Below, one piece after another: positions 12,657 through 61,136 of a stretch of DNA of 64,000 nucleotides. Each line of letters opens with the position of its first letter. The first letter of the stretch is position 1. Made by a program: the position numbers and the translations under genes. This DNA comes from a candidate division WS6 bacterium OLB20 (GTDB lineage Bacteria > Patescibacteriota > Dojkabacteria > B142 > OLB20): assembly GCA_001567355.1 (NCBI GenBank), contig JYNZ01000002.1:7477-71476 (forward strand), given 5' to 3'. The notes beneath the pieces were generated by a model. That model worked only from the letters and a program-made list of their open reading frames with translations. It did not search any database and was not told the DNA's origin.

Positions 12657-12694
12657 CCTACGGATGTCATAAAGCTGAGTCAGCAGCTATAGTA

Positions 12695-12768
12695 AGGTGA
12701 CGGCGGGATTCGAACCCGCGCGTAAGGGTTTTGCAGACCCTCGCCTTAACCAGCTTGGCTACGTCACC
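12695..12768 (-). tRNA. tRNA-Cys (anticodon GCA), CCA not encoded
   Basis: The reverse complement folds with acceptor GGTGACG/CGTCACC, anticodon loop CTGCAAA, T-arm GCGGGTTCGAATCCCGC, and discriminator U. Confidence 0.85.
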
Positions 12769-13059
12769 GTACGTAGGGCAATTGTATCAGAAATAAAACC
12801 TCTGTCACCACTGTATGTCGGAATGCGGCCGATTTAGGGTAGAATGTTGCATAATTATCGTCAACTGTATGTGTCTTTTCTGCGGAGCCCCTGGTGGTCA
12901 CAATCTGGCGCAGTTAATCCCTTATATCGCAGTAACTGCACCTTTGCTTGTTATGCGTTTGAAGGTCGCACGCAGATCAAAAAAACATTCGAATGGAGAT
13001 CTGATGACGAAGAGCTTAAAGCGCACACCGAGGTAATATACATCTGTTGATGCTCTGTG

Positions 13060-13134
13060 TCGGGGTGACAAGACTCGAACTTGCGACCTCGCGCACCCGA
13101 AGCGCGCGCTCTAAGCCAACTGAGCTACACCCCG
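13060..13134 (-). tRNA. tRNA-Pro (anticodon CGG)
   Basis: The reverse complement folds with acceptor CGGGGTG/CACCCCG, D-arm GCTCAGTTGGCTTAGAGC, anticodon loop TTCGGGT, T-loop TTCGAGT, and discriminator A. Confidence 0.85.
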
Positions 13135-13219
13135 ATACAGCACATCAGTAGTCACATCCCGCTCTTAAGAACCCGTTGTCAATTCTGAAGTATGCAGGTC
13201 TCACAAAGGAATAATAGTC

Positions 13220-13307
13220 TGGTGCCGGAGACAGGACTCGAACCTGCACAGCTGTTAAGGCCACATGCACCTGAAGCATGCGTGTCTACCAATTTCACCA
13301 CTCCGGC
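13220..13307 (-). tRNA. tRNA-Leu (anticodon CAG), long variable arm, CCA encoded
   Basis: The reverse complement folds with acceptor GCCGGAG/CTCCGGC, anticodon loop TTCAGGT, long extra arm, T-loop TTCGAGT, and ACCA. Confidence 0.85.
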
Positions 13308-13431
13308 ATACTGTCAAATAAGGCGTTACTGAACGCTGGAGCTTATTATATACCCTGACGGGCATTTTTTGTACTCCCTGACGCTACTGCTGCTGAACGG
13401 TCATCCTTTTTTTGGACTGTGTCGGGGTGAC

Positions 13432-13506
13432 AAGACTCGAACTTGCGACCTCACGCACCCCATGCGTGCGCTCTAAGCCAACTGAGCTACACCCCGTCAC
13501 AGCACA
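13432..13506 (-). tRNA. tRNA-Pro (anticodon GGG)
   Basis: Near-duplicate of the 13060..13134 tRNA, with the anticodon stem-loop CACGC-ATGGGGT-GCGTG. Confidence 0.85.
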
Positions 13507-38362: not shown

Positions 38363-38547
38363 ACATCGCCCGAGTGTGGCGATGTACCTTTGTGGTGCAT
38401 GCCCTCTGCTCGGAGGTTAACAAATATGACTGCATGGTATCCGGACTTACCGGCACAAAATGTGCAGGATTACCGTTGCGGCACAGTGGAGGATTTTCAC
38501 CCCCTTCCCCATGCAATGCTGCCACTATACGGTAATTACTGTCAGAC

Positions 38548-39408
38548 GTGCAAGTGGTTGAGTATCGGCTGAAAACTATATACAATTACTGCAGTATGAA
38601 GGACGGACCATTCTCTAAATTTGTAGGTGCTGTAAAACATCAGGCTGCCAAAGTCAGCACAGCCGGGCTGCATCCTCGCTACATGTGGGATGCGTCAAGC
38701 GAAAGAATCCGGTACTGGATGCTCAACAGCATCTTCCCCGAGAACACACGGGGACACAATCTGCACAAAGCGATTGATCATGCACTTGAAAACGGAGAAT
38801 TTATCATGCAGATCGGTTGCGGGCGACATGGACAGGCGCTGCTTGACCTGAAAAAACTCGGAGCAGGTAATCTTATCGGAATGGATTTTCGGGTTCCGGC
38901 TGAAGATTACGAAGATATTGCATTTGTTGCAGCTGATCTCACAAAACGACTGCCGGTTGAGGATGATACATTCACGGGGCTGGTATTCGGTTCGTACCAT
39001 TTTCACTATATGAGTCCCGGCGAGCAGCTGCATCTGCTTACTGAGATTGACAGGATTACAGGTCCAGGCTCTCTCGGATTTCTGGGGCCGTTCTTCCCGC
39101 AGCATCTGCTTGAGGGACCCTTTGCTGATGCGTTTTCTGATTATAAAAATCCTGTGTACGGTTTTGTTAAGTCAAGAAGTGTCGGCGGACAGCGCTGGCG
39201 TCTATACCGCAGCCGTATCGCAAGTCTGTCAACATTTTCAGGAATAAAGACCAGTTCGCGGACGCGAAAAGGAGTGCGTATACCGCTTCTCAGTTTTTAC
39301 GATATGGGATTCCGTTCGCTGACAGGCAGGATGCTGGGTAATGCACGCATCAAACGTGATTATCGTCCGATCATCCCTAACGAGTACTTCATCACCTTTG
39401 AGAAGTAA
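38548..39408 (+). CDS. putative class I SAM-dependent methyltransferase-like protein
   Basis: Motif I-like IMQIGCGRHGQAL, plus an acidic motif II-like AADLTKRL...GLVFG. Confidence 0.4.
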   Translation: MQVVEYRLKTIYNYCSMKDGPFSKFVGAVKHQAAKVSTAGLHPRYMWDASSERIRYWMLNSIFPENTRGHNLHKAIDHALENGEFIMQIGCGRHGQALLDLKKLGAGNLIGMDFRVPAEDYEDIAFVAADLTKRLPVEDDTFTGLVFGSYHFHYMSPGEQLHLLTEIDRITGPGSLGFLGPFFPQHLLEGPFADAFSDYKNPVYGFVKSRSVGGQRWRLYRSRIASLSTFSGIKTSSRTRKGVRIPLLSFYDMGFRSLTGRMLGNARIKRDYRPIIPNEYFITFEK

Positions 39409-44664: not shown

Positions 44665-45240
44665 GTGAGTATGAAGCAGCTCACGTCGTTTTTCAACTAC
44701 TCCACGGATATGGTTCTGGCTACCTTTCTGCTGCTTCTGATTATGTTCTCTTTTATTGTTGTGGCTTCTCTGACACCGATTACGTACCCTGAGACCGTCT
44801 CTGATCTGAGTGTTCTTGGCGCAGCCACAGATTCGCAGGTCCGCTATACCGGAACAGATGACAGCAGCTATGAGCTGCAGGAGATACGCCAGTCTGACAG
44901 CACTACATCCGTTCAGTTTACACTTACACCTGCATCGGAGACGTATGTTCAGGAGCTGTTTGTTCTTGAGGCACCGCAGGACGGAACAGGATTGTTCAGA
45001 GTCGAGATTGAGCTACCGGATCAGGCCAGGTATGGTGCCCGTTATGCGATCAGAGTTGCAGGGCAGGAGTATGAACTATACAACGACACAGGTGATGCAC
45101 TGCAGAGAGACTATGAGCTGAATGTCGCTGCGGGTGAAACAGTTCCCGTCAGCTTTATGTTCTCATCTGAAGAATTAATAAACTATCCGCTTGATCTGCT
45201 GCTTTCGGTTGAGTTCACAGGACTCAGTACGCTTCCCTAA
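44665..45240 (+). CDS. hypothetical membrane-anchored exported protein
   Basis: The N-terminal helix LATFLLLLIMFSFIVVASL is the only feature. Confidence 0.4.
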   Translation: MSMKQLTSFFNYSTDMVLATFLLLLIMFSFIVVASLTPITYPETVSDLSVLGAATDSQVRYTGTDDSSYELQEIRQSDSTTSVQFTLTPASETYVQELFVLEAPQDGTGLFRVEIELPDQARYGARYAIRVAGQEYELYNDTGDALQRDYELNVAAGETVPVSFMFSSEELINYPLDLLLSVEFTGLSTLP

Positions 45241-47133
45241 TCGTTTTTCAGTGCCTTGATAAACACATCTTTCGGAAGCTCCACACGCCCGAACATCTTC
45301 ATCCGCTTTTTACCTTTCTTCTGTTTGTTGAGCAGCTTCATTTTTCGCGTGATATCTCCGCCGTAGAGTTTGGCAGTGACATCCTTGCGATAGGCAGGTA
45401 TTGTCTCGCGAGCGATGACTCTTGACCCGATGCTTGCCTGGATGGGGATCTTAAACTGCTGTCTCGGTATGAGTTCCTTCAGTTTGGATACGGTGTCGCG
45501 GGCGCGAAACTCGGCCTTGTCCCGGTGAGCAAGAAACGAAAGTGCCTCAACCGGTTCGTAGTTGACCAGAATGGAAACCTTTTCGATCTTTGAAACCCGG
45601 TACTCAAGGAATGTATAGTCCATTGAGGCATAACCCTGGGACAGCGATTTAAGCTTGTCAAAGAAGTCGATGATGATTTCTGCTGTCGGGAGTTCGTATT
45701 TGAGCATTACATGTTTTTGGCCGGCGATATGCTGGCTGCCGAGATAGTTCATGGTTTTGTAGATCCCGCGGCGCTCCTGTGTAAGGTCCATAATGCTGCC
45801 GATATACTGTTCGGGAGAGAGAATCTCCAGTTCAACCCACGGTTCTTCAATTTCATCAATCAGTGTCGGATCGGGAAACTCGGCCGCGTTTTTTTATATG
45901 CAGCTTTTTTTCCGAGTCGATATTGGCGATATTTATTGTTTCAAACTTGCTGTAATCATGTGTGGCAAGTTTCAGTTTGTATTCAACACTCGGGGAGGTT
46001 GTTATCAGGTCTATATCAAACTCACGCTCCAGCCGTTCCTGTGTAATCTCCATGTGCAGCAGCCCGAGGAATCCGCAGTTAAAACCTGATCCCAGAGCCT
46101 GGGAGTTTTCCTTCTGAAAGGTGATTGCAGGGTCATTCAGCGCAAGTTTCTCGAGTGCTTCCTGAAACTGTGGAAAATCATCGGCATCAATCGGATAAAG
46201 TGAGGCATACACCATCGGTTTAGGCGGCATATATCCCGGGAGTGGCTCGGTTTTTTGTGCCATGCCTGCCAGAGCTACAGTGTCTCCAGCATGTACATTG
46301 CGAATATCTTTGAGTCCTGTAGCGATATATCCGATAGCACCGGTCAGCAGCTCATTCTGCGGGACAAGATGTGGCAATACAAAACCGATCTCCACCGGTT
46401 CTATCTCTGTATCGGTTCCAAGCATGACGATGGTATCCTTCTGGCTGAAACTGCCGTCAACAACTTTGACAAGCGCCACAACTCCTTTATGCTCGTGGTA
46501 AAACGAGTCGTAGACAAGCGCTCTGGGTACTTCGTTGTTGCCGGTTTTAGGAGCCGGTACACGTTCGATAATGGCATTGAGAAGATCAGTAACACCTGCA
46601 CCGGTTTTGCCGGATGTCAGAACGATCTCATCCTCATCAAAGCCGAATGTCTCACTGAGGCTCCTGATGACCATGGGCACATTGGCACTGGGCAGGTCAA
46701 TTTTGTTGATTACCGGGATGATGTCCAGGTTGTACTCAAATGCCTTATAGACCGTGGTAAGTGTCTGCGCTTGAATACCTTGTGTTGCATCTACAAGCAG
46801 GACAGCTCCTTCAGCTGCTGCCAGTGAACGCGATACCTCATACGAAAAATCGACATGGCCGGGTGTGTCAACAAGATTGATAATGTACGGATCATCTGAT
46901 ACAAACCGCTCATCGCTGCCGCTGTAGGTAAACTGCATCCGCGCAGTCTGCATTTTGATTGTAATGCCGCGTTCCTGCTCCAACTCAAGCGTATCAAGCA
47001 TTCTGTCTTTTGACTCGCGTTCTGTGACATTGCCGGTGATCTCCATCATGCGGTCAGCAAGTGTTGACTTGCCGTGGTCAATATGGGCTATGATCGCGAA
47101 GTTTCTGATTTTCTGTATTCGTTCGGACTGCAT
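45237..47133 (-). CDS. lepA: elongation factor 4 (LepA); frameshifted at a T7/A7 run (45889-45895)
   Basis: ORF 45856..47133 covers the GTPase through domain IV (AHIDHGKST, DTPGH, NKID). ORF 45237..45791 is the LepA C-terminal domain. The connecting segment (FPDPTLIDEIEEPWVELEILSPEQYIGSIMDLTQERRG) reads in a third frame. Deleting one A from the A7 run joins the frames. Confidence 0.8.
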
Positions 47134-50664: not shown

Positions 50665-51756
50665 CTACTTCTTCTTGCCTTTGCCTGCGCGATGCTTGCG
50701 AATGCGATATCCTACGTAAAGAATCAGCAATACTGCAATAGCGAGCAGCAGTTTCCAGGGGATAACCCAGAATGTGAACTCCTGAGCATCAACAATCTTT
50801 TTGCTGCCGGCATCATCATACCCGACAGCCAGCTTTGCTGTGTACTGTCCAAATGGAAGGCTGAAGTTTGAGGGATCGACTGCAAACCTCGTCTGTACTG
50901 TGCCGTTTTCGTCTGTTATCTCGTTTCCGTTTTCGTCCAGAACAGGTTTCAGTTCTAGTAAGGCACCTGTCCAGCGGTCAACAAACACACGTGCGCTGTC
51001 TTTAAGGATGCTGCCGTTTGCAGGATTGAAATCCAGCTCGGCAATCTTCGAGTCTCCGCTGTAGATGAAGATGTGGCCAAGAGGAACTGTGTGGCTGTTA
51101 CCGACGTTTCGAAGTTCGGTAACGAAACCGACCGGCATCCACTCAAAGACATTAACAAGCGGCTTCTGGCGGGTAAACGGATCTGTAGCGTAGAACTTGT
51201 CCACGGTAAGTGTCCTGACGACATCGCCCTTAACATTCAGGAGGATAATTGCAGCTCGCTCGTCTTTAAAGGCAATGTTGTTGTTGCCTGTATCAAGAGA
51301 CTGGCCCGGTTTTACAAGTGAAGCGATAATACCTGCATAGTGACCTCCGGGTTCTGCGTCAACCGGTACTTCGATAGTAAAGTCAATAACTTTGGTATTG
51401 GGATTATCCGGCTCGACCTGCTTAACGATAAACTCGGATTCAGAGAGGCTGATCCACTCTTTTAAAGAAGCCGAGTATGGCAGTTCTTCGTTATGAAAGA
51501 GCGGAGTGCCCGACTGACCGTCAGATTTGAAGTTAAGTGTATACAGATACAACGTCTTGTCAGAGAACGTTGAGTTAATCAGCTTCAGCTGACCGGTGAC
51601 AGTCTCTCCCGGGTCAACGTCATACTCAAACCTTACTGGTGAAACTGTAATACCTTTGTCATCCACAACATTATCCTGTGCAAATGACTGTGACAACATA
51701 CCTCCCAGAAACAGCGCAGTCAGTGCAGCTGTCAGGAGTAGCGACTTCTTAAACAT
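50665..51756 (-). CDS. cell-surface protein with N-terminal signal peptide and C-terminal TM anchor plus a basic tail (DUF916/DUF3324-like architecture)
   Basis: Signal peptide MFKKSLLLTAALTALFLGGMLSQSFAQD, and a C-terminal WKLLLAIAVLLILYVGY followed by RIRKHRAGKGKKK. Confidence 0.5.
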   Translation of the reverse strand: MFKKSLLLTAALTALFLGGMLSQSFAQDNVVDDKGITVSPVRFEYDVDPGETVTGQLKLINSTFSDKTLYLYTLNFKSDGQSGTPLFHNEELPYSASLKEWISLSESEFIVKQVEPDNPNTKVIDFTIEVPVDAEPGGHYAGIIASLVKPGQSLDTGNNNIAFKDERAAIILLNVKGDVVRTLTVDKFYATDPFTRQKPLVNVFEWMPVGFVTELRNVGNSHTVPLGHIFIYSGDSKIAELDFNPANGSILKDSARVFVDRWTGALLELKPVLDENGNEITDENGTVQTRFAVDPSNFSLPFGQYTAKLAVGYDDAGSKKIVDAQEFTFWVIPWKLLLAIAVLLILYVGYRIRKHRAGKGKKK

Positions 51757-52262
51757 CAGTCTGTCCTAACAAATAAAGAGGAAAATAATAAGAGCTTGAT
51801 GGGCATTAGGCTCAAGACTAAATTAATAGGCTGGTTCTGTCAATTGTATGTAATCAAGTGCAGAAATGCGCTATTCAGGTGTGTTCAACCTGTGTACGTC
51901 GGGGAGGCTTACAGCTCTAGGACTCACGGATCGCCCTGCCAGTCTGTGTTTTTTGTGGATTTTCTTTCCATCATTTCTTACGTTTATCCTTGACATCGGT
52001 TTCAAATATTTCTACAGTAGCTATGAAGTCTTGCACACTTCTTTGCTATCTGAATTTTACGACTGCCTTGAATATTAGCTGTTTCAGTCACAACCAATCT
52101 TTGCTGATAAAGCCAGGACGCGATGTTGTATTTCGCATTCCTGGCTTTTATTATTTTCGGTTTCGTTATCTGCCTCTGGCAGAGAGCAAATTCAATCGAA
52201 AGGGGGTGAGCATGGAACAATAAGCTTTAGAAACCGGCTTACTAAATTTTATCCATATTGCT
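51757..52262 (+). promoter_or_regulatory. 506-bp AT-rich divergent control region containing a promoter-like TTGACA-17-TACAGT (~51982-52010), a 10-bp-arm hairpin (52111-52150), and a strong SD (AAAGGGGGTGAG) driving a 3-codon mini-ORF (ATG GAA CAA TAA, 52212-52223)
   Basis: Read directly from the sequence. No protein-coding frame of convincing composition spans this region. Confidence 0.3.
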
Positions 52263-53516
52263 ATGACGCAATTATTTGTCAAAAGAAACTTTAAAGCAGT
52301 TTCACTATTAACTATTTTTACGTTTGCATTCTACATGGTCGCTGCTGTTGTCCTCGTTAACGGGGTCAGTGCTGCAACTATTACGTCTGCAAGCGACACA
52401 ATGTCACGACTTCAGGTGAGTGTCGTCGATGTCGAACACACTATCGTGTTTACACCGGTGACAGCAATCAACCAGGATGACGGTGTCCAGTATACACTGG
52501 CCTCCGCATTCGGTGATACCGATCTTGATGTCGCTGACTACTCAATCTCTCAGGGTACAGGCGGCACTGCCTGTGCATCCTGGACAGAGGTTACCTATGT
52601 GCCAGCAAACGATGTCATTCAGTTTGAATGCGACACTGTTGGCGCTGCCGGTACAGGTCCGATCACTCTGACCATCACTACCGATCTTGACAACCCGGCA
52701 ACAGCCGCCAGTTACGAAATCGGTATTACAACATACGACCTCGGTGCTGACACTAACTTCGGTGGTGTTGATGATGTTGTAGAGGATACCGGAGAGGTTG
52801 AGGTCTCAATCCTAGACGATGACACTGTTAATATTACAGGCTTCATCGATACGTTCATCACCTTTGACATCGACACATCTGAGGTAGACGAGGACTGTGA
52901 TGCTGCAGGCGGTACAACCCCCTGTGACAGCCATGGTGGCTCATCTGATAACTCAGGGTATGTCGTTGACCTCGGTGAGTTGAACACATCATCAGTTAAC
53001 GACTCTGGAGACTCAGTAGTACATGCTGACAGTCTCGCAGGAAGCATCAACTACATCTGGTTCGATACATCAACAAACGCCGATGGTGGCGTAGTTGTGA
53101 CCGTGCTCAGTCTTGTAGGAGAGAACGATGTTGACGGTACCCCCGATAACACGATCTCGGCTCTTGAGGGTCCCGGAACAAACGAGATCCGCTCAGTAGC
53201 TGCTGGAGCTGCAACCGCCATTGCTGCAGGTGACGGTCTGTACGGTCTGGCATTTGCTGCTGATGACACCGGTGTAAACACAGTTGTATCCGGATCAGCC
53301 GCAACGATCGCAGCTTTCTACGATCAGTCTGCTGCCGGTGAGTTTGGACCGATCCCGAGTGATCCTGGAGGAGGAACACCTGCTACTATTTTCAGCAGCA
53401 CGGGTCCTCTTGACCAGTCACGCACACAGTTTGAAGTCGCTGCATCACCTGATGCCACAGACGGTACAGGTACATACACCGACGAACTGACGTTTATCGC
53501 TACAGCAACCTTCTAG
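52263..53516 (+). CDS. secreted surface protein sharing its ~230-aa C-terminal module with the downstream giant protein
   Basis: N-terminal signal-anchor. The C-terminal block ILDDDTVNITGFIDTFITFDIDTSEVDEDCDAAGGTTPCDSHGGSSDNSGYVVD...GTYTDELTFIATATF parallels the C-terminus of ORF 53595..61097. Confidence 0.55.
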   Translation: MTQLFVKRNFKAVSLLTIFTFAFYMVAAVVLVNGVSAATITSASDTMSRLQVSVVDVEHTIVFTPVTAINQDDGVQYTLASAFGDTDLDVADYSISQGTGGTACASWTEVTYVPANDVIQFECDTVGAAGTGPITLTITTDLDNPATAASYEIGITTYDLGADTNFGGVDDVVEDTGEVEVSILDDDTVNITGFIDTFITFDIDTSEVDEDCDAAGGTTPCDSHGGSSDNSGYVVDLGELNTSSVNDSGDSVVHADSLAGSINYIWFDTSTNADGGVVVTVLSLVGENDVDGTPDNTISALEGPGTNEIRSVAAGAATAIAAGDGLYGLAFAADDTGVNTVVSGSAATIAAFYDQSAAGEFGPIPSDPGGGTPATIFSSTGPLDQSRTQFEVAASPDATDGTGTYTDELTFIATATF

Positions 53517-53594
53517 GGTTGGCTAATGCACCGCTCTCTACCGCGATGTAGAGAGCGGACATGAGCTAATCGCTCAAGTGCACTTCTTACTTGT

Positions 53595-56500
53595 TTGATC
53601 GAACTTATGCAACACGTCACCAGCAAGGGGACGGCGTTAGTCAGTAGGGTGCGAACCCTTCCCCGCAGAGCTGTCTATTTTTCAGCTGCATTGATTGCAG
53701 TTTTTCTGGTTGCAAGCGCAGGTATTCTGTATAGCGGCATTATCAACGCTGCTCCGCCTGCTCTTGAGAAAATTGATGACTATAACAGCGCTGGAGCTGA
53801 TAACGACTTTGGCGACGCCATTTATGACCACGGAGACGGTACATTCTCAACAGTAGCATTCTCTGACACAGAGTTCAGAATTGCTCACTATGAGGCAGAC
53901 GGTAATCTGCTTGCTGCGGATACAGCATCTACATCAGCGGGTTCTCCGCCCGTACCGCTTGCCTATGTGTCTTCAGGTTCGGCGGACAAGGGCACTGCTT
54001 CAAGTGGCAGTCATCTTGCCTCAACCGGAACAGGTGAAAAACGCTATCTTGTTGTGTTTCTGCAGTACAGAGCAACATCGCCTGCAGGCAGCGCGGTCGA
54101 TTATAACGGAACAGCCATGAACCGTCTCTGTTATGACAATAACAGTGACTACGGTACAGAGCTGTGGGTACTTGCTAATCCAGACAGCGGAACAAACAGC
54201 ATCGGGTTTACCATGACAGGCTCAACGCCTGATATCAGGATCGGGTATGTATCAGCCGAGGGAGTGGAACAGTCGTCACCGTACCGTGATTTTGACTGCG
54301 CAAACGGACACAGTACAAATCCAACAATTACCGTAACATCTGCAGACGGCGATCTTGTCATTGGAGCTAATGCCCAGTATTCAGGCGGTAACAGTCAGTC
54401 ACTTGATACAGTCGGAGCGACATCAAACTGGATCAACCAGCTGGGCGGTCCAAATGTTCTCTCATCATCTGCGAGGATAAGTGCAACAGGAGCATCAACC
54501 AACCTTTCCTGGACGTCAACCGTTTCGTGGCATTGGAGTACAGCGGCCCTATCTCTTAAACCCGATACGGGTACTGGCGGAGGTGCATCAGAAACAGTCA
54601 CGGTAGATGACACATCTAATTTTGGTGACTCGAATACCGATTACCTTTCGGGCAGCCACACCGTAAGCGGCCTTAACAGATTTATGCTGACACAGATTTC
54701 ATGGCAGGACAACGACAGTACGTCAGCAACTGTCAGTTATGTTGACTCTTACACTGGTGACTACACATCATTCAGCGAGCTGTGTACAACCAATAATGGC
54801 AAGTATTATACGTCGCTGTGGTACCTTGAGGATCCCGCAGCTGCAGAGCATAATATTGAAGTTTCATTCTCAAACTATGTATATGCAATTGATGTCAGGA
54901 CAACCTCGTTTAATGGAGTCTCCCCGGATAATCCGATTGACAACTACAACTGTAATGCAGGTAGCGATACAACGCCTACTGTGACTGTCACCTCGGCTGA
55001 GGGGAAATACACATACGGAGGAGCAGCAACGAATGAAAACAACTCGCTCTCACTTGGTGCCGGTATGAGCGGTGTTAACATAGGGTCAAACTATGGAACA
55101 CTTGTATCAGGTGCAACCAAGGTGGCTACACCATCCACTGATTTTTCCTGGACCCTGTCGGGTGGAGGAGGTGGAGGCACTGTCTATATGCTTGCACGCA
55201 GTTCTGCTGATCTCTACGATATAGATCCCGACACAGGAAGCACCAACGGGACACTTTCGCTGTATAAAAGCGGTGGGGATGTTTACGGAGGCACAGGTCT
55301 TGCGGTAGATCCGACTGATGACAGTATGTATGCAATCCTTGATACGGATACAAACTCATTTGTACTTTCAACCATCGATTACAGCACTGGAGAGATTACC
55401 GAGATCGGCTACCTTGGTGACAATTTTGCGGGTATCGCTATCGATGATAACGGCATCATGTATGGTGTTACAGGTCACGGAGCTGTAAATCCCGAGGAGA
55501 TTTACACAATCGACAAATCTACAGCGGCAACTTCTTTCTTTATGTCTTTAAGCTCAACAGGTTCAGGCCAGGGCATTGCTTTTAACACAAGTGACGGATT
55601 TCTTTACCGCACGGGAGGTGAGGACAGCTATGACGGGCTGATGGACAGGATCAATGTGAACACAGCGTCTGTAGCCGCAACATACTATCCAAGCGGAGAT
55701 TACTATGACCGCTTCAAGGCACTTGGTTACTGGGGAGGATCGTATGATTTTCTTGGTTTTGGTACAGGATACCTCTATGGTGTCAGTGATACCGGAAGCG
55801 TTACTGAAATCGGCTTTAACGGTTATGACAATAAAAAGGGTATAGCAGTCGTGCAGGATAGTTCAACGCCCTGGGCCGCAGCTGCAGTTTCGATTAATCC
55901 GATAGAGTCCTCTCCAATTACTGTGGCTACATCGGGTAATAGCTACGACAGTTTCTCGCCTGTTACGTATCTCTCGACAAACTATATGGAATCTACAGGG
56001 GGACAGCGTGCAGCCTATATTACATTACAGTATGAGTACGATAGCCCCGCGTCCTCTCCAGTTGATACTGTTGAGTTCTATGACGATAGCACAAGTGAGA
56101 CAATAGCCGCCACGTTTCTATGCAGGAGTTATGAGGGCAATTTCGTATTTGAACAGTACTATGTATCAGACCCTGCTTTGAGTGATTCAGTCTACGCTCA
56201 AGCATCGTTTAGCACCGGTGTTGACGAGGCTCACATTCATATGTCTATCCTTAACGGTGTTGATAATTCTGATCCGGTAGGAACTGGAGTCTGCAACAAT
56301 GGAACGTCTATTGATCCACAGGTATCTGTCTCGACCGGCTCGACTAACGAATTTCTAATGGCGGGAATCACAGCTTACAGAGATTCAGGCAGTCAGGTTG
56401 TTTATTCCGGACTGGATGCAAACGAGGAAAGCCAACTTTCGGGAGACAGTATTATTTCTGCTGTTGAATCCCAGACCGCTGATGCTGGCTCAACGCTTAT

Positions 56501-59500
56501 GGAATTTGATCTTAACCAGAGTGGCGACTGGGCAATGGGAGCTGTTCCATTCAAGAATATTGAAGCAAATGTCGTACCGGAAGGAGGACTCTCGGGTGCC
56601 TACAGGATTGCAGGAGGCAGGGGAGCATTCATTGCTGACAGTTCTGGCAATTTCTATGCTGCGGCAAACAACACTAACTCGGTTACAAACAGACAGTTCA
56701 GAATTTCTAAACATGGCACAGACGCATCTGAGACATGGTTCTTTACTAAATCGATTGAAGAAGGTGATGCACTTAATTATGCCAATGACCTTGCAGTTGA
56801 CAGCTCAGGCAATGTCTATATTGCTGCCGATATGGATGTATCAGGCATCAATGAAGGAAAGATCATTAAGCTTGATTCGTCTGGCGCAGAGGTTACCACG
56901 TTCGACTTTGAAGACACTGTGTCCGAAGGGTCAGGTATCTGGGATATATTCATAGATGGCAGTGATAACATATATGCCTGCGGATACAACAAGTACGACT
57001 CCAGCAGTCAGTATCAGGATATGTATGTCCAGAAACTTACTACTTCCGGAACAGTAACATGGGACTATAATTTCAGCACCACACCCAAAAACACTAACGA
57101 AAGCTGCCGCTCACTCGTTAAAAGCGGCTCTGATATTTACATCTGGGGTATGAGCAGCAGCGGAACAGCAGGAGCAAGCGGTCTGAAGAGAACACTTGTA
57201 CGACTTGACGACGCGTCAGGTTCGCAGCAGTACGCGCAGGTTGCAGGTTCGGAGATTGATTCCTCATCCTACACGGCTGACGAGGTTAACCTGATTGCTT
57301 CAAAGGGCTTACTTGTTCTTTCAGGAACAGAACTCTATGCGGTCAGCTGGAATCCGGGGAGCGGATCGTCACTGTTCCAGTTTACTGCTGCAACAGGATC
57401 GCTGCTTGAATCGGGATTATACAGCGGTTCCGGTATCGCAAACCCGCTCATCACATCTGTTGGAGTATATGAAGGCTATGATGGTGATACATGGGTGGCA
57501 GTCGGAGGCTATGACTACGATGCAACTGAACAGGGCTTCATCGGTCTGACCAATGCAGATGAAATTTCCATGGGTGTACCTGGTGAACATGACACAGTAG
57601 GGTCAAACGGTACCGAGGTCAGAGTCACCGGTCTGGTTATCGATGATAATACAATCTACGCATCGGGCTATGATATGGATGGAGGCAACGGAGCAGACTC
57701 GTATCTGGGACGCTTTGGATGGTCAGTACTGACAGTGACCTCATCAAACAATGTGTTTGCAAAGGATAGAGGACTCAACCTTGAGGACCACAAATACATG
57801 GGTGGCAACGAGTTTACTGCTCAGGTCAGGACCTCAGGGGGCACCACTTTTGCCGAAGTGCCGTTTGAATTTGCAAATGATGACATCAGTTCGATGGATC
57901 TTAACGGAGGATATGATGCCGTTTCATACAAGACCTACTATGAAGGTGAGTCACCTGCGACTGGAGCAGAATATACACTTATAGTCGCCCGTGACAGTGG
58001 ACACAATGCCGTTAGAATCTGCCCGGATGCAGACAGTTTTGTCAGCATTGCTGAGAGCTGTGTGGGTGAGGAGATTCTGCCCGACACTGATGCCAGGGTT
58101 ACAAATGATGGTGCAACATTTACAGTTACCGGATTTGAAGTTGACAGTGCGTATGGAGTTGCAAGTATTACTGTTGACGCATCAGTCGATGTAACAGAGT
58201 TTCCTATCTATGATTTTGACAGCGGTGTGGATGAATCACGACCGACAGTTAAAGCGTTAAACGGGCACATCATCTATGCTTCAGGAAACGGCGCAGGCCA
58301 GATAAACCTTTCCAAGATTCGCATCTATGACAATGAGACAATCTGGGAAAGAACATTTGAAAATCCGGGTGGGTACGTTCTGTTTGATCAGCTGAAGATC
58401 GAACTGGATTCAACCGGAAACATATTTGTAGGTGCTGATATGGCGATCCCCGGGGAAGGAAACAATCATGACTACTTCCTGATTAAATTTGACAGCAATG
58501 GTAACGCACTGTGGCATAAGGCATACGATGGCGGCAGCACAGCACATGATTCCTTTGATCTGTTTCAGGATATGCATGTTGACAGTAATGGCAATGCCAT
58601 TCTAACAGGCATCCTGGAGGTCGCATGGCCAACAAGTCCATTCTGGAAACAGGTTGCAGGGACTATAAAGGTCAATGCACAGGGAATAGAGGTCTGGCGC
58701 TATGTTGAGGACGAAGGCCCTCAACACAGTTACTCATACGACATCATCTCTGATTCGACAGGTAATATTTATGTCTGCGGTGGTGCGGACATGGATACGA
58801 CAGGACCTTCATACCGAGACTTCTATGTAAGCAAGATTGATAACAGCACCGGAAATAATGTCTGGACGTATCGCAACGCGACGACAACTACCGGCTCATT
58901 TGCACTTGAGAATTGTGAAGCATTACAGATCGGAAATGGAGGCAGCACGATTGTAGCCGCCGGTACGATAAAAGCTGTCAGCGATAACGGAACATTGCGC
59001 TGGTTTGTGGCTGGACTGAGCACTACAACAGGAGCGCTGCAGTGGAGTGATACAGATAACTTTGCTGATAACCCGGGATTTGCCCCGATATACACTCTGG
59101 CAAGTGCATACAACTCAGACAGTGACAGGGTGCTTTTTGCAGGCAGAGACTTATATTCTGGTCCGGGTGATGCATTCGCAAAACTCTATAATCCTGCAAC
59201 CGGAGCAAAGATATGGGAGAAAAGCATAAACGTAACCGGTAACAATGACTTCTTTAACTCTGCTGCTACCTATTCCGACTTCCAGGGCAATCCGCACTAT
59301 CTGGTGCTGGGAGGATACAGTAACGGCAGCAAGAACATCTTCATGCTGAGAAGCTACACCTCCTCAGGTCTGGAAGAGTTCAACAAAACGTATGATGCCG
59401 GTACAAACGCTTATGGTACGTCTCTTGTTGTGGACTCCAGAGGAATTGTATATACAGGGCTCATTGCAGATACGGGATCCGGTGCTGATGGAGCCGTTCA

Positions 59501-61097
59501 TAAGTACGCCTTCAAAGTAAATAATCTCGACCCGACGCTTGGACTTAAAGTTGATGCGATTCCCGGTGTGGAGGTTGACCTCGAAACTGACGGGTATGGT
59601 GGAGCATTTGAAGCGACGCTGACAAACGGCAACGACGTGCCGATTGCCCAGTTTGATATGGGCCTTAGCGGAGACGTTGACTGGTCAACAGTAACAGCAC
59701 AACGCGAAGGACTTAAGGCGTTTGTACACTTTGGATTAGGATTCAGCAGCACTCCCGGTGTCAATGCATCGACCTTCAGCCTGCTTGTGCCGAGACCTGC
59801 AAATGCATCTCAGGTCATCATCTGCCCGGGTGCTATTCAGCTCGAGGATATTTCCGACAGCTGCCCCGGCAAGGAGGTCAAGCAGCTCAGCGACATGGAT
59901 GTGGACATTACAACATTCCACGGTCAGGAGTACTTTAAGATCTCAGGACTGACAGGTACCGGCGGAATCCCGATCAATGATGCATCGGCTGTACGTGATA
60001 CGCTTACCCGTGAACAGATCAGTATTGACAGTGATCACAATGTTGAATTCGGAACAACACTTGGTATCGACTCATCCGGTGACACGATTGAGCTCGACTT
60101 TGCTGACGAGTTCGACTTCAGTGCTATTACAGTCGATGATATCGACCTGGAGGTAAACACAGCTGATGAGGACCTCTGCACAGGTTCATTCCCGTGTGCA
60201 GCAGCAGCAGGTGTCTGGGGTGTGGATCTGGATGCTGTTAATAACATTCTTACCTTTACAGCACCGACGGATGCCAATGCCGCTACAATTACAATCAGCG
60301 ACGTTATCAACGTGCACATCGGTCTGATTGCAGACCATCAGGCAACTGGTGCCAACCAGGTGACAAATCCTGCAGCTATCGGATCGTACGAGGTACATAT
60401 CCAGATTACCAACGGCGGTGTCGAGGTCGGAGAGCTTGAGATCCCGATTATCGACGATGACACGGTAAATGTCAGCGGTTACATAGATACGTTTATCACG
60501 TTTGACATCGATACATCAGAGATCGATGAGGACTGCGATGCGGCAGGTGGATCAACTCCTTGCGACTCACACGCCGGGTCATCAGATAATTCCGGATATG
60601 TTGTAGACATCGGAGAAATGACAATATCCAGTGTCAATGTAAGCGGAAACAGCGTTGCCCATCAGGATGGTAATACAGGTCTGATCAACTTTATCTGGAT
60701 GGATCTGTCTACTAACGCAAATGGAGGAGCAGCAGTATCTGTCTTCTCACTTAACGATGCCCTGACAGGACCCGGTTCTTCAGAGATCCCGTCAGTTGGT
60801 GCAGGCGAGGTGGAGATCACTGCAGGCGACGGTCTGTACGGTCTGCAGAACAGATTCCTTGACCTTAAAAACGCAGTCAGTGGAGACATCATCATCAATG
60901 ATGACTGTGATACTGACGGCGGCAATACATACTTCTGCAGTGTTGGAGGAGCGCTCGGAAGAGAGCTTTTCAATACCAATAACGATGTAGTGGATCAGGG
61001 AAGAATACAGTTCCGGGTTGGTGCATCCCCCGATGCGCTTGACCAGACTGGAATATACACAGATGAGCTGACCTTTATCGCAACAGCCACCTTCTAG
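53595..61097 (+). CDS. giant (2500-aa) cell-surface protein with SBBP-type beta-propeller repeats and a conserved C-terminal module
   Basis: Signal-anchor, then an internally duplicated ~170-aa N-terminal domain. At least five repeats fit the SBBP pattern D(S)xGNxYxxG...DxFxxKxDxxGxxxW, for example DSTGNIYVCGGADMDTTGPSYRDFYVSKIDNSTGNNVW. The C-terminus is identical to the 52263 product (YTDELTFIATATF). Confidence 0.65.
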   Translation: MIELMQHVTSKGTALVSRVRTLPRRAVYFSAALIAVFLVASAGILYSGIINAAPPALEKIDDYNSAGADNDFGDAIYDHGDGTFSTVAFSDTEFRIAHYEADGNLLAADTASTSAGSPPVPLAYVSSGSADKGTASSGSHLASTGTGEKRYLVVFLQYRATSPAGSAVDYNGTAMNRLCYDNNSDYGTELWVLANPDSGTNSIGFTMTGSTPDIRIGYVSAEGVEQSSPYRDFDCANGHSTNPTITVTSADGDLVIGANAQYSGGNSQSLDTVGATSNWINQLGGPNVLSSSARISATGASTNLSWTSTVSWHWSTAALSLKPDTGTGGGASETVTVDDTSNFGDSNTDYLSGSHTVSGLNRFMLTQISWQDNDSTSATVSYVDSYTGDYTSFSELCTTNNGKYYTSLWYLEDPAAAEHNIEVSFSNYVYAIDVRTTSFNGVSPDNPIDNYNCNAGSDTTPTVTVTSAEGKYTYGGAATNENNSLSLGAGMSGVNIGSNYGTLVSGATKVATPSTDFSWTLSGGGGGGTVYMLARSSADLYDIDPDTGSTNGTLSLYKSGGDVYGGTGLAVDPTDDSMYAILDTDTNSFVLSTIDYSTGEITEIGYLGDNFAGIAIDDNGIMYGVTGHGAVNPEEIYTIDKSTAATSFFMSLSSTGSGQGIAFNTSDGFLYRTGGEDSYDGLMDRINVNTASVAATYYPSGDYYDRFKALGYWGGSYDFLGFGTGYLYGVSDTGSVTEIGFNGYDNKKGIAVVQDSSTPWAAAAVSINPIESSPITVATSGNSYDSFSPVTYLSTNYMESTGGQRAAYITLQYEYDSPASSPVDTVEFYDDSTSETIAATFLCRSYEGNFVFEQYYVSDPALSDSVYAQASFSTGVDEAHIHMSILNGVDNSDPVGTGVCNNGTSIDPQVSVSTGSTNEFLMAGITAYRDSGSQVVYSGLDANEESQLSGDSIISAVESQTADAGSTLMEFDLNQSGDWAMGAVPFKNIEANVVPEGGLSGAYRIAGGRGAFIADSSGNFYAAANNTNSVTNRQFRISKHGTDASETWFFTKSIEEGDALNYANDLAVDSSGNVYIAADMDVSGINEGKIIKLDSSGAEVTTFDFEDTVSEGSGIWDIFIDGSDNIYACGYNKYDSSSQYQDMYVQKLTTSGTVTWDYNFSTTPKNTNESCRSLVKSGSDIYIWGMSSSGTAGASGLKRTLVRLDDASGSQQYAQVAGSEIDSSSYTADEVNLIASKGLLVLSGTELYAVSWNPGSGSSLFQFTAATGSLLESGLYSGSGIANPLITSVGVYEGYDGDTWVAVGGYDYDATEQGFIGLTNADEISMGVPGEHDTVGSNGTEVRVTGLVIDDNTIYASGYDMDGGNGADSYLGRFGWSVLTVTSSNNVFAKDRGLNLEDHKYMGGNEFTAQVRTSGGTTFAEVPFEFANDDISSMDLNGGYDAVSYKTYYEGESPATGAEYTLIVARDSGHNAVRICPDADSFVSIAESCVGEEILPDTDARVTNDGATFTVTGFEVDSAYGVASITVDASVDVTEFPIYDFDSGVDESRPTVKALNGHIIYASGNGAGQINLSKIRIYDNETIWERTFENPGGYVLFDQLKIELDSTGNIFVGADMAIPGEGNNHDYFLIKFDSNGNALWHKAYDGGSTAHDSFDLFQDMHVDSNGNAILTGILEVAWPTSPFWKQVAGTIKVNAQGIEVWRYVEDEGPQHSYSYDIISDSTGNIYVCGGADMDTTGPSYRDFYVSKIDNSTGNNVWTYRNATTTTGSFALENCEALQIGNGGSTIVAAGTIKAVSDNGTLRWFVAGLSTTTGALQWSDTDNFADNPGFAPIYTLASAYNSDSDRVLFAGRDLYSGPGDAFAKLYNPATGAKIWEKSINVTGNNDFFNSAATYSDFQGNPHYLVLGGYSNGSKNIFMLRSYTSSGLEEFNKTYDAGTNAYGTSLVVDSRGIVYTGLIADTGSGADGAVHKYAFKVNNLDPTLGLKVDAIPGVEVDLETDGYGGAFEATLTNGNDVPIAQFDMGLSGDVDWSTVTAQREGLKAFVHFGLGFSSTPGVNASTFSLLVPRPANASQVIICPGAIQLEDISDSCPGKEVKQLSDMDVDITTFHGQEYFKISGLTGTGGIPINDASAVRDTLTREQISIDSDHNVEFGTTLGIDSSGDTIELDFADEFDFSAITVDDIDLEVNTADEDLCTGSFPCAAAAGVWGVDLDAVNNILTFTAPTDANAATITISDVINVHIGLIADHQATGANQVTNPAAIGSYEVHIQITNGGVEVGELEIPIIDDDTVNVSGYIDTFITFDIDTSEIDEDCDAAGGSTPCDSHAGSSDNSGYVVDIGEMTISSVNVSGNSVAHQDGNTGLINFIWMDLSTNANGGAAVSVFSLNDALTGPGSSEIPSVGAGEVEITAGDGLYGLQNRFLDLKNAVSGDIIINDDCDTDGGNTYFCSVGGALGRELFNTNNDVVDQGRIQFRVGASPDALDQTGIYTDELTFIATATF

Positions 61098-61105
61098 AGT
61101 TTTGC

Positions 61106-61136
61106 AAGGCCGCCAGCCCTTAGGGCTGGCGGCTTC
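61106..61136 (+). terminator. stem-loop terminator after the giant surface-protein gene
   Basis: AAGGCCGCCAGCCC-tta-GGGCTGGCGGCTT, a 14-bp stem. Confidence 0.55.

What the first reader, a model, noticed from the sequence alone, without database searches (positions are those of the whole stretch)
50665..61136. Cell-surface locus: giant SBBP beta-propeller protein and a small sibling share a C-terminal module ending in an identical peptide, next to a DUF916-like anchored protein
ORFs 52263 (417 aa) and 53595 (2500 aa) both start with signal-anchors. They end with a homologous ~230-aa module (…DDDTVN(I/V)(T/S)G(F/Y)IDTFITFDIDTSE(V/I)DEDCDAAGG(T/S)TPCDSH(G/A)GSSDNSGYVVD…(I/L)N(Y/F)IW(F/M)D…) that terminates in exactly the same 13 residues, YTDELTFIATATF. 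The giant protein inserts an internally duplicated domain and at least five SBBP beta-propeller repeats between the anchor and the module. The spacing of an upstream W-x-(F/M) motif and the terminal LTFIA peptide loosely parallels the two-motif WxL peptidoglycan-binding domain of Firmicutes. The divergent neighbour (50665) has the signal-peptide, C-terminal TM and basic-tail architecture of the DUF916/DUF3324 proteins found alongside WxL loci. An alternative reading is that the terminal alternating-hydrophobic peptide ending in Phe acts as a beta-signal-like sorting element. Either way this looks like an uncharacterised surface-attachment module. The nucleotide identity between the two copies is only ~75%, so the sharing is ancient and under selection, not a recent repeat.
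Basis: partly seen in the sequence, partly recalled or inferred. Interest (0 to 1): 0.7.

Follow-up and report, generated by a model that had tools for sequence, protein, structure and literature searches.

The report
Chaperone-assembled pilus locus with giant adhesin
This locus of an uncultured ultra-small (CPR/Dojkabacteria) bacterium most likely builds a surface fibre from a small subunit, a giant beta-propeller adhesin carrying the same subunit module, and a membrane-anchored chaperone; it is a distant relative of the Pam pili described in 2026, and its chaperone is clearly related to the WxL-interacting proteins of Gram-positive bacteria.

Summary
ORFs 52263-53516 (417 aa) and 53595-61097 (2500 aa) share a C-terminal module and the same last 13 residues. 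Homology covers about 380 aa, not 230 (BLASTP E=4e-73). It is not an assembly artefact: the 13 shared codons differ at six synonymous sites. The window is from candidate division WS6 bacterium OLB20 (Dojkabacteria).

The module defines a large family, named as Patescibacteria where named: 1619 clusters, nearly always at the extreme C-terminus, often fused to large N-terminal parts. It has a beta-sandwich domain, a highly conserved linker (DDDTVNxTGxIDTxxTFDIDT) that AlphaFold cannot place, and a C-terminal domain with significant but sub-threshold similarity to NCBIfam CPR_Pam_pilin_C.

No similarity to the WxL domain itself was detectable. The beta-signal reading is rejected.

Best reading: a Pam-type pilus or surface assembly built by donor-strand exchange, a new variant of a known kind. 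The chaperone-WxLIP link may tie CPR Pam pili to Firmicute WxL clusters.

The parts
50665..51756 (-). Membrane-anchored two-domain PapD-like chaperone, a WxLIP homologue (363 aa). It has a signal peptide, two Ig-like domains, a C-terminal TM helix and a basic tail.
51259..51318 (-). Low-confidence loop of the chaperone (aa 147-166). It is the candidate donor hairpin that would complement the subunit groove.
   Evidence: pLDDT is 56-67, and below 50 at residues 156-160, in an otherwise >90 model. [quoted passage not shown] The role is inferred.
50689..50757 (-). C-terminal transmembrane helix of the chaperone (aa 334-356), followed by the basic tail RKHRAGKGKKK.
   Evidence: The model has a helix at 334-362. 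The WVIPWK...hydrophobic segment is conserved in 29 homologues. It aligns with the WxLIP TM helix.
51757..52262 (.). Divergent intergenic region between the chaperone and pilin genes. It contains one sigma-70-like match at 51990-52018 (+).
   Evidence: The number of matches is no more than expected by chance, so this is only a candidate.
52263..53516 (+). Small subunit (417 aa), the putative major pilin. It consists of a signal peptide, an N-terminal beta-sandwich domain, a linker and a C-terminal domain.
   Evidence: The AF2 model has pLDDT 80. It is 100% identical to TR69_WS6001000150 of candidate division WS6 bacterium OLB20.
52815..52877 (+). Linker, the putative donor strand, aa 185-205: DDDTVNITGFIDTFITFDIDT.
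   Evidence: This is the most conserved block of the family, with invariant D185, V189, F201, D202, D204 and T205. It is conserved CPR-wide as I.D.DQV.VT.......TFD.DT. AF2 places residues 187-231 at pLDDT<50. In PamA/PamB the inter-domain linker is the donated strand and is among the most conserved parts.
52956..53513 (+). C-terminal domain (aa 232-417), the putative acceptor domain with an incomplete Ig fold. It ends in YTDELTFIATATF (53475-53513).
   Evidence: With the linker plus C-terminal domain scanned alone, NCBIfam CPR_Pam_pilin_C gives E=1.3e-6 and 28.5 bits. The match covers profile positions 22-148 of 148 and runs to the last residue. 30 of 39 diverse family C-terminal domains hit the same model. 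The terminal motif is family-wide.
53517..53571 (+). Strong RNA hairpin immediately after the small-subunit stop codon.
   Evidence: dG is -35.4 kcal/mol, z=-5.4, and 0 of 200 shuffles fold as well. Equivalent hairpins with different stem sequences lie at the same place in Dojkabacteria loci L005 and L001. There is no T-run. A role in differential expression is inferred.
53595..61097 (+). Giant protein (2500 aa): a signal peptide, adhesin-like N-terminal domains, and a C-terminal pilin module.
   Evidence: Orthologues of 2098-2510 aa sit in the same position in other Dojkabacteria (L001, L005). The representative search also returns related proteins of 2501, 2485 and 2407 aa.
54003..56474 (+). 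Three copies of an unassigned ~190-aa domain (aa 137-330, 350-520, 760-960). They flank a 240-aa region (aa 520-760) with a weak DUF4394 match.
   Evidence: Self-BLAST E-values are 5e-13 to 4e-5. DUF4394 scores 2.6e-5, below its cut-off.
56562..59924 (+). Two SBBP-type beta-propeller regions (aa ~990-1380 and ~1540-1980). Each is followed by a related ~125-aa domain with a C...C motif.
   Evidence: NCBIfam Lepto_SBBP_lipo gives E=3.3e-23 in 4 stretches. Pfam SBBP/NHL is sub-threshold.
59976..61094 (+). Pilin module of the giant (aa 2128-2500). It comprises an N-terminal-domain-like part, the linker aa 2287-2307 (60453-60515), and a C-terminal domain ending in YTDELTFIATATF (61056-61094).
   Evidence: The A1 HMM gives E=8e-117 over HMM positions 25-390. 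The giant's C-terminal domain hits CPR_Pam_pilin_C at E=6e-4.

Best explanation
This is a three-gene locus for a chaperone-assisted surface fibre of the Pam type, assembled by donor-strand exchange, in a monoderm CPR bacterium (Dojkabacteria OLB20).

All three products are exported by Sec. The 363-aa protein stays in the membrane through its C-terminal helix. It acts as a PapD/WxLIP-like chaperone: a strand from its flexible loop fills the open groove of the C-terminal domain of a newly exported subunit, next to that subunit's conserved C-terminal strand (...LTFIATATF-COOH).

The 417-aa protein is the major subunit. Its conserved inter-domain linker (DDDTVNITGFIDTFITFDIDT) then displaces the chaperone strand in the groove of the neighbouring subunit, giving a head-to-tail polymer.

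The 2500-aa protein carries the same module at its C-terminus. It is therefore joined to the same fibre and presents two SBBP beta-propellers and other domains as the adhesive or host-binding part. The hairpin after the small gene would favour excess of the small subunit over the giant.

Shown here:
- the homology of the two modules;
- the family-wide C-terminal position of the module;
- the PapD-like/WxLIP identity of the neighbour;
- the conserved synteny;
- the sub-threshold but significant match to the Pam pilin C-terminal domain.

Inferred, not shown:
- strand donation by the linker;
- polymerisation;
- the position of the giant in the fibre;
- the role of the hairpin.
For: 1. Module and family. 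BLASTP of small against giant gives E=4e-73. There are 1619 representative clusters at E<=1e-3, and in nearly all listed hits the match ends at the last residue. Many are 600-3362-aa fusions.

2. Pam link. The window protein's fragment comprising linker and C-terminal domain hits NCBIfam NF058581 CPR_Pam_pilin_C at E=1.3e-6. The giant's C-terminal domain hits it at 6e-4. 30 of 39 diverse fragments of the same kind hit it, best 8.4e-10, always aligned to the end of the profile. No other family recurs.

3. Architecture matches PamA/PamB as published: signal peptide, N-terminal beta-sandwich, single linker strand, C-terminal open Ig-like domain, paired cysteines. In those proteins the linker and the acceptor site are the most conserved parts (bioRxiv 10.64898/2026.03.03.709456). 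Here the linker is the most conserved block and is the segment AF2 cannot place in a monomer, pLDDT<50 at 187-231.

5. Synteny. In 50 of 62 loci from named Patescibacteria genomes, a module gene lies within 3 kb of a chaperone-like gene. In 47 it lies directly upstream on the same strand. 23 loci also have a protein with the C-terminal domain only, comparable to PamT. The same trio is found in other Dojkabacteria (L001, L005).

6. A conserved hairpin follows the small gene.
Against: - The match to CPR_Pam_pilin_C is below NCBI's cut-off (28.5 against 55 bits).
- Nine Saccharibacteria/Paceibacteria C-terminal domains of the same HMM-defined family do not hit the model at all. Orthology to a particular Pam pilin is therefore unknown.
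- I could not obtain PamA-D sequences or structures for a direct comparison.
- Fold searches of the subunit model returned only generic Ig-like hits: YweA/BslA, Gram-positive pilins, and SafDAA at rank 11.
- No multimer prediction could be run, so strand exchange is not demonstrated.
- The window has no PamT-like tip gene (C-terminal domain only) and no PamR-like anchor gene.
- The giant keeps a full linker, which a tip subunit would not need.
Confidence: 0.6

Rival explanations
1. A non-polymeric, WxL-cluster-like surface complex. The membrane-anchored WxLIP homologue permanently holds one small and one giant module-bearing protein at the cell surface by strand complementation. It acts as a platform displaying the beta-propeller adhesin, and no fibre forms.
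For: The neighbour is a clear WxLIP homologue. One WxLIP plus one small and one large partner is the commonest WxL cluster: 98 of 179 clusters (PMC10599100). Gene order in Firmicute plasmid clusters is small WxL, WxLIP, large WxL. This parallels the CPR order. The window lacks PamT-like and PamR-like genes.
Against: The module has the N-terminal domain plus conserved linker plus C-terminal domain layout of polymerising Pam pilins, and it hits the Pam pilin model, not WxL. The linker is the most conserved element in both the small and giant proteins. A static 1:1:1 complex would not obviously require that. Many related loci carry 2-4 tandem pilin paralogues, as pilus operons do (L015, L046).
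Confidence: 0.25
2. The module is a divergent WxL peptidoglycan-binding domain. It attaches both proteins non-covalently to the cell wall through the W-x-F/M and LTFIA motifs.
For: One homologue is named 'WxL domain-containing protein' in UniRef. At low stringency the conserved motifs of the two families line up in the same order: YtVdLG with ldFG, IxxDLsTNAxGGaxVTV with vxDxRGxxxGWxLxV, and YTDxLTF with YxxtLtW. The partner is WxLIP-like.
Confidence: 0.08
3. The terminal alternating-hydrophobic peptide ending in Phe is a beta-signal-like sorting element for an outer-membrane insertion machinery.
For: Only the superficial resemblance: a C-terminal aromatic residue and an alternating pattern.
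Against: The organism is a Dojkabacteria/CPR bacterium. [quoted passage not shown] The proteins are predicted as soluble Ig-like beta-sandwiches, not barrels. The motif is accounted for by the C-terminal strand of a chaperone-dependent subunit.
Confidence: 0.01
4. The shared end is an assembly or recent-duplication artefact.
For: None beyond the identical 13 residues.
Against: There are six synonymous differences in the 13 codons. The longest exact nucleotide match is 18 nt, and overall codon-aligned nucleotide identity is 54%. The same pair of genes is present in independent assemblies. The motif is family-wide.
Confidence: 0.01

Closest known systems
Pam pili of CPR bacteria: PamA/PamB pilins, PamC/PamD membrane-anchored chaperones, from Ca. 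Mycosynbacter amalyticus (bioRxiv 10.64898/2026.03.03.709456, 2026)
   Same: - Found in a CPR host, with Sec signal peptides.
[quoted passage not shown]
- The adjacent PapD-like chaperone has a C-terminal TM helix, and there is no usher.
- There is significant similarity to the NCBIfam Pam pilin C-terminal domain model.
- Proteins carrying only the C-terminal domain occur in related loci, like PamT.
   Different: - The score is below the family cut-off.
- The lineage is Dojkabacteria. The Pam paper reports mainly Saccharimonadia and Microgenomatia and never mentions Dojkabacteria.
- The locus is a minimal three-gene one with a divergent chaperone gene, and the window has no PamT, PamE or PamR counterparts.
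- One 'pilin' is a 2500-aa fusion with beta-propellers. Such cargo-pilin fusions are not described in the paper ('propeller' occurs 0 times).
- Assembly here is inferred, not observed.
WxL clusters of Lactobacillales/Bacillales (csc clusters): small WxL, large WxL and WxLIP (DUF916-DUF3324-TM). Sources: Siezen 2006, PMC1534035; Hassan 2023, PMC10599100; PDB 9i1y/9i25
   Same: - The chaperone-like protein is homologous over its full length, including the TM helix.
- It is partnered with one small and one large secreted protein sharing a C-terminal domain.
- The gene order is the same.
- Binding is predicted to occur by a strand that completes the partner's sandwich.
   Different: - The shared C-terminal module is not detectably a WxL domain.
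- It has an extra N-terminal domain and linker, and it ends exactly at the C-terminus.
- There is no small LPXTG protein.
- The host phylum is Patescibacteria rather than Firmicutes.
- WxL proteins are described as peptidoglycan-bound platforms, not polymers.
Classical and archaic chaperone-usher pili of Gram-negative bacteria (Pap, Fim, Saf, Csu, CFA/I)
   Different: There is no outer membrane and no usher. The chaperone is membrane-tethered. The donor strand is an internal linker between two domains rather than an N-terminal extension. No sequence similarity to these systems is detectable.

Membership tests
Pam pilus system (CPR) | Pilin C-terminal domain matches NCBIfam NF058581 CPR_Pam_pilin_C at or above the curated cut-off (55 bits) | tested here: not met
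   The small subunit's linker-plus-C-terminal-domain fragment scores 28.5 bits, E=1.3e-6. The giant's C-terminal domain scores 19.9 bits, E=6e-4. 30 of 39 family fragments hit the model, best 8.4e-10. The similarity is significant but below the cut-off. This indicates a distant relative, not a member by NCBI's rule.
Pam pilus system (CPR) | [quoted passage not shown] | tested here: inconclusive
   AF2 gives two beta-rich domains (38-184 and 232-417) joined by a segment at pLDDT<50 that contains the most conserved motif. This is compatible with the feature, but I could not inspect the groove or superpose the model on PamA/PamB.
Pam pilus system (CPR) | Adjacent PapD/FimC-like chaperone with a C-terminal transmembrane helix | tested here: met
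Pam pilus system (CPR) | Accessory tip protein (PamT, C-terminal domain only) and membrane anchor or terminator (PamR, RbmA-like with TM) in the operon | tested here: not met
   HMM scans of all window ORFs find only the three genes. ORFs with the C-terminal domain only occur in 23 of 62 related loci. No PamR counterpart was identified; there was no model to search with.
Pam pilus system (CPR) | Subunits polymerise into filaments by donor-strand exchange | not testable with these tools
   This needs multimer prediction, cryo-EM or biochemistry.
WxL cluster (Firmicutes) | WxLIP protein: DUF916 (PF06030) plus DUF3324 (PF11797) plus a C-terminal TM helix | tested here: met
WxL cluster (Firmicutes) | At least two proteins with a WxL domain (PF13731, dual Trp-x-Leu motifs) | tested here: not met
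   PF13731 hits 0/24 and 0/39 sequences at E<=10. Controls score 1e-27 to 1e-49. hhalign is not significant. The Trp is not conserved.
WxL cluster (Firmicutes) | One small protein and one large protein share the C-terminal domain, encoded with the WxLIP gene | tested here: met
   Compare Firmicute loci L066, L068, L071 and L075.
WxL cluster (Firmicutes) | Non-covalent binding to peptidoglycan | not testable with these tools
   A binding assay is needed.
Chaperone-usher pili | Outer-membrane usher | tested here: not met
   No further conserved gene is present in the locus. The host is monoderm (established knowledge).
Outer-membrane beta-barrel proteins with a C-terminal beta-signal | Beta-barrel fold and a BAM machinery in the host | tested here: not met
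   The model is made of beta-sandwich domains. The absence of BAM and an outer membrane in CPR rests on established knowledge and was not tested on the whole genome.
SBBP beta-propeller repeat (PF06739), giant protein only | Repeat matches above the Pfam gathering score | tested here: not met
   Pfam gives 14.3-17.1 bits against a 20.5 cut-off. NCBIfam Lepto_SBBP_lipo gives E=3.3e-23 in 4 stretches. The regions are SBBP-like propellers, divergent from the Pfam model.

The most novel reading that the evidence does not exclude
The Pam-type pili of CPR bacteria and the WxL clusters of Firmicutes are two branches of one ancient, usher-less, chaperone-assisted donor-strand system of monoderm bacteria.

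Under this reading, WxLIP (DUF916-DUF3324-TM) is a membrane-tethered PapD-like chaperone. The 'small' and 'large' partners are the fibre subunit and the adhesin-fused subunit. WxL domains are incomplete Ig-like acceptor domains.

This Dojkabacteria locus is the bridge. Its chaperone is demonstrably WxLIP-like, while its subunits are Pam-like. If true, WxL proteins of Enterococcus, Listeria and Lactobacillus may also form strand-exchanged oligomers or fibres rather than simple peptidoglycan-bound platforms.
Probability: 0.3. Interest if true: 0.8.

Novelty: new variant of a known kind. Interest (0 to 1): 0.58.

Why it matters
CPR bacteria are thought to live attached to host cells, and how they attach is largely unknown. 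This locus matters for four reasons.

1. The Pam-like, chaperone-dependent subunit module is far more widespread than reported. I found 1619 clusters at 50% identity. Loci in named genomes come from Dojkabacteria, Paceibacteria, Uhrbacteria, Nomurabacteria and Saccharibacteria.

2. The module serves as a general C-terminal handle. It couples very large adhesins, up to 3362 aa and here carrying two beta-propellers, to a fibre or surface complex. This points to candidate host-binding proteins.

3. The chaperone of these systems is homologous to WxLIP of Gram-positive pathogens and probiotic bacteria. Neither the Pam paper nor the WxLIP paper makes this link.

4. If the link extends to the subunits, it would change how WxL virulence and adhesion clusters are understood. 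It would also give the chaperone-usher principle a monoderm, usher-less counterpart.

Tried and rejected
- **Pfam and NCBIfam on the intact proteins.** These gave nothing useful for the 363-aa and 417-aa proteins. Hits emerged only from family-wide scans and from the isolated fragment holding the linker and C-terminal domain.
- **AFDB fold search.** The library was not available.
- **Profile searches of the PDB with the module.** Nothing was found. The Pam structures (25PZ, 25QA) are not in the copy, or are too distant.
- **Attempt to reach Ca. Mycosynbacter amalyticus PamA-D.** A profile search of 5.8 billion proteins returned only unnamed CPR hypotheticals in the 120 listed hits. The preprint's supplement has no sequences.
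- **WxL relationship of the module.** I built a WxL alignment from annotated plasmid clusters. I ran hhalign in several modes and with a 206-sequence C-terminal-domain alignment. None of the runs gave a significant score.
- **NCBIfam on Saccharibacteria/Paceibacteria relatives.** There were no hits.
- **NCBIfam model for the chaperone.** None exists.
- **Promoter and terminator scans.** These gave no more than chance.
- **Readings rejected.** Assembly artefact, beta-signal, and LPXTG/sortase anchoring (no such motif; the proteins end in ...TATF).


Full report
**What is in the sequence**

The three ORFs are as described:
- 50665-51756(-), 363 aa;
- 52263-53516(+), 417 aa;
- 53595-61097(+), 2500 aa, with a TTG start.

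The small protein is 100% identical to TR69_WS6001000150 of 'candidate division WS6 bacterium OLB20'. This is a Dojkabacteria member of the Candidate Phyla Radiation. The 363-aa protein is TR69_WS6001000149.

BLASTP aligns residues 13-417 of the small protein with 2103-2500 of the giant (E=4e-73, 42% identity). The last 13 residues are identical. The shared part is therefore the whole mature small protein, not only about 230 aa.

At the DNA level the aligned codons are 54% identical overall and 67-70% identical in the conserved blocks. The 13 identical terminal codons differ at six synonymous positions, and the longest exact match is 18 nt. This excludes an assembly or recent-duplication artefact.

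The giant's layout, from self-comparison and family scans, is:
- a signal peptide;
- three copies of an unassigned ~190-aa domain, with a 240-aa region (weak DUF4394 match) between the second and third;
- two SBBP-type propeller regions, each followed by a related ~125-aa domain;
- the module, at residues 2128-2500.

**The module defines a large CPR family and nearly always sits at the very C-terminus**

All named sources among the homologues of the small protein are CPR bacteria. In 24 aligned homologues the two most conserved blocks are the linker DDDTVN(I/V)TG(Y/F)IDTxxTFDIDT (residues 185-205) and the terminal G(T/V/S)YxDxLT(F/Y)(I/V)ATx(T/I)(F/Y)-COOH.

An exhaustive HMM search of 1.84 billion representatives finds 1619 clusters at E<=1e-3 and 834 at E<=1e-10. 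Nearly every one of the 150 best hits aligns through to its last residue. Many are fusions of 600 to 3362 aa.

A scan of GTDB species genomes gives 62 loci. They come from Dojkabacteria, Paceibacterota, Uhrbacteria, Nomurabacteria, Saccharibacteria and unclassified Patescibacteria. A few bins are labelled otherwise. All of the near-full-length ~335-450-aa proteins from these loci end in ...DYxDTLTF(I/V)ATxTF or a close variant. Part of that uniformity comes from the search pattern. One search is free of that bias.

**The neighbour is a membrane-anchored PapD-like chaperone homologous to WxLIP**

Pfam finds nothing on the 363-aa protein itself. The family-level evidence is nevertheless strong:
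- 17 of 29 aligned relatives give weak PF06030 (WxLIP_PGBD, formerly DUF916) hits, best 2.2e-6.
- The family profile hits the solved E. faecium WxLIP1 (9i1y, 9i25) at E=2e-5.
- I built an alignment of nine annotated 'DUF916 and DUF3324 domain-containing' proteins from Firmicute plasmid WxL clusters. hhalign against it gives 99.1% probability, E=4.9e-19, over 303 columns from signal peptide to TM helix.

The AlphaFold model is confident (pLDDT 89.4, pTM 0.77). It has two beta-sandwich domains, a C-terminal helix at 334-362, and one poorly defined loop at 147-166.

[quoted passage not shown] That is donor-strand complementation in all but name. A WxL-WxLIP complex is now in the PDB as 9i25, with chain A the WxL protein and chain C WxLIP1.

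**The module resembles Pam pilins, not WxL domains**

The only family that recurs for the module is NCBIfam NF058581, 'CPR_Pam_pilin_C, Pam pilus system pilin subunit':
- On full-length proteins, 15 of 24 hit, best 1.1e-5.
- On fragments holding the linker and C-terminal domain, the window protein gives E=1.3e-6 (28.5 bits), covering profile positions 22-148 of 148 and running to its last residue.
- On a diverse set of such fragments, 30 of 39 hit, best 8.4e-10.
- The giant's C-terminal domain gives E=6e-4.

All of these are below the curated 55-bit cut-off. This is a distant relative rather than a member.

Pam pili were described in a 2026 preprint (10.64898/2026.03.03.709456). In that work:
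- PamA and PamB of Ca. [quoted passage not shown]
- The linker is donated into the C-terminal domain of the adjacent subunit.
- The linker and the acceptor site are the most conserved parts.
- PamC and PamD are FimC/PapD-like chaperones with a C-terminal TM helix, and there is no usher.

The window protein fits this layout. AF2 gives domains at 38-184 and 232-417. The intervening conserved segment 187-231 is at pLDDT<50, as expected for a strand that only folds in another subunit.

By contrast, the tests for a WxL domain are negative:
- Pfam WxL (PF13731) hits none of 24 full-length or 39 C-terminal-domain sequences at E<=10. Firmicute controls score 1e-27 to 1e-49.
- hhalign against a 15-sequence WxL alignment is not significant in any mode, even with a 206-sequence C-terminal-domain alignment (probability <1%, P 0.1-0.26).
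- At low stringency the conserved motifs of the two families fall in the same order. I regard that as a lead, not evidence.

Fold searches of the subunit model gave only generic Ig-like matches.

**Conserved gene neighbourhood**

I made HMMs from the two family alignments and ran them on all ORFs of the 62 genome loci.
- A module gene lies within 3 kb of a chaperone-like gene in 50 loci.
- It lies directly upstream on the same strand in 47 loci.
- The usual order is [protein with the C-terminal domain only] - [~385-aa subunit] - [~345-aa chaperone].
- 23 loci have such a protein, comparable to PamT.
- Several loci have 2-4 tandem subunit paralogues (L015, L046).
- Of the 12 loci without a chaperone gene, L004, L032, L040 and L055 are short contigs or have the gene near a contig end. 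The other eight carry large module fusions.

In Dojkabacteria the arrangement seen in the window recurs in L001 and L005: chaperone divergent, then small subunit, then a 2100-2500-aa fusion. Firmicute WxL clusters on plasmids show the parallel order LPXTG protein - small WxL - WxLIP - large WxL.

**Proposed mechanism**

The following is inference from the points above and from established chaperone-usher biology.
- All three proteins are exported by Sec.
- The chaperone remains membrane-tethered. It caps the open groove of a subunit's C-terminal domain with a strand from its flexible loop.
- The subunit's invariant, strictly C-terminal strand (...LTFIATATF-COOH) lines that groove. This would explain why the module is never followed by anything. 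In classical systems the pilin's C-terminal strand and carboxylate are held in the chaperone cleft.
- The linker of an incoming subunit then replaces the chaperone strand, giving a polymer of the 417-aa protein.
- The giant, carrying the same module, is coupled to the fibre and displays its propellers.

A strong hairpin directly after the small gene (dG -35.4, z -5.4) is conserved in position but not in stem sequence in L005 and L001. It could raise the ratio of small to giant product, as in other pilus operons.

Three points are unresolved:
- where the giant sits, since it keeps a full linker, which a tip subunit would not need;
- what anchors or terminates the fibre, since the window has no PamT-like or PamR-like genes;
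- whether polymerisation occurs at all, as opposed to a static WxL-like complex. That is the main rival, to which I give 0.25.

**Comparison with known systems, and novelty**

The locus works like a Pam pilus, and more remotely like chaperone-usher pili. It fails the curated sequence threshold for the Pam pilin family. It lies in a lineage the Pam paper does not mention. It lacks the accessory genes. It features a giant cargo-pilin fusion that the paper does not describe. I therefore class it as a new variant of a known kind.

The chaperone's homology to WxLIP is robust. In the literature I could search it is not connected to Pam pili or to donor-strand exchange.

The most novel reading not excluded is that CPR Pam-type pili and Firmicute WxL clusters are one ancient monoderm chaperone/donor-strand system. 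I give this about 0.3. The chaperone half is shown only for this family, not for PamC/PamD themselves. The subunit half (WxL homologous to the Pam C-terminal domain) has no statistical support here.

**Limits**

- No multimer prediction was available.
- No AFDB search was available.
- I had no access to Pam sequences or structures.
- NF058581 does not hit nine Saccharibacteria/Paceibacteria C-terminal domains of the same HMM-defined family. Orthology to a specific Pam pilin is therefore unknown.
- E-values quoted for family scans are per protein against one library.

Noticed in passing
window 53517-53571: A very stable RNA hairpin (dG -35.4 kcal/mol, z -5.4) lies directly after the small-subunit stop codon, with no T-run. 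Hairpins with different stem sequences occupy the same position in Dojkabacteria loci L005 (about 11262-11306) and L001 (about 11341-11380). This may be a differential-expression or mRNA-stability element between the major subunit gene and the giant gene.
   Followed up: partly
window 45237-47133 (-): lepA is split into two ORFs. The first is 425 aa (GTP_EFTU, D2, EFG_III). The second is 184 aa (EFG_C from profile position 24, then LepA_C). They are separated by 64 nt. In the related locus L001, lepA is also called as two genes but is cut at a different place (157 + 484 aa). This may reflect frameshifts or assembly errors, or a real feature.
   Followed up: no
window 38415-38557 (-): A cobalamin riboswitch (Rfam RF00174, 44.8 bits) lies upstream of the 403-aa ORF at 37151-38362(-). 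This is notable in a reduced CPR genome.
   Followed up: no
window 12573-13496 (-): A cluster of five tRNA genes on the minus strand.
   Followed up: no
window 54003-56474 (giant aa 137-960): An unassigned ~190-aa domain is present three times in the giant protein, with no Pfam match. The region between copies 2 and 3 (aa 520-760) gives a sub-threshold DUF4394 hit (2.6e-5).
   Followed up: partly
loci L003 7451-9634 and L008 7549-9690: Other Dojkabacteria carry a second, divergent pair upstream of the main subunit gene: a ~310-aa chaperone-like gene plus a ~406-aa protein matching only the C-terminal part of the module. This gives two chaperones, as with PamC/PamD. The window genome lacks this pair at this locus.
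   Followed up: partly
loci L066-L075 (Firmicute plasmids): WxL clusters on Lactococcus, Enterococcus, Listeria, Lactiplantibacillus and Vagococcus plasmids share the order LPXTG protein - small WxL - WxLIP - large WxL. This parallels the CPR order of protein with the C-terminal domain only - subunit - chaperone - (large protein). Small WxL proteins start, after the signal peptide, with a short strand-like motif (for example TGDVAFSSG or EGKIEFRP) that resembles the CPR linker in pattern.
   Followed up: partly
same genome, outside the window (P0029, TR69_WS6001000271, 697 aa): A further module-bearing paralogue is encoded elsewhere on the same 267-kb contig, apparently without its own chaperone. 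Loci with only large module fusions and no chaperone gene also occur in other genomes (L007, L009-L012, L029, L052, L064). One chaperone may therefore serve several cargo proteins.
   Followed up: no
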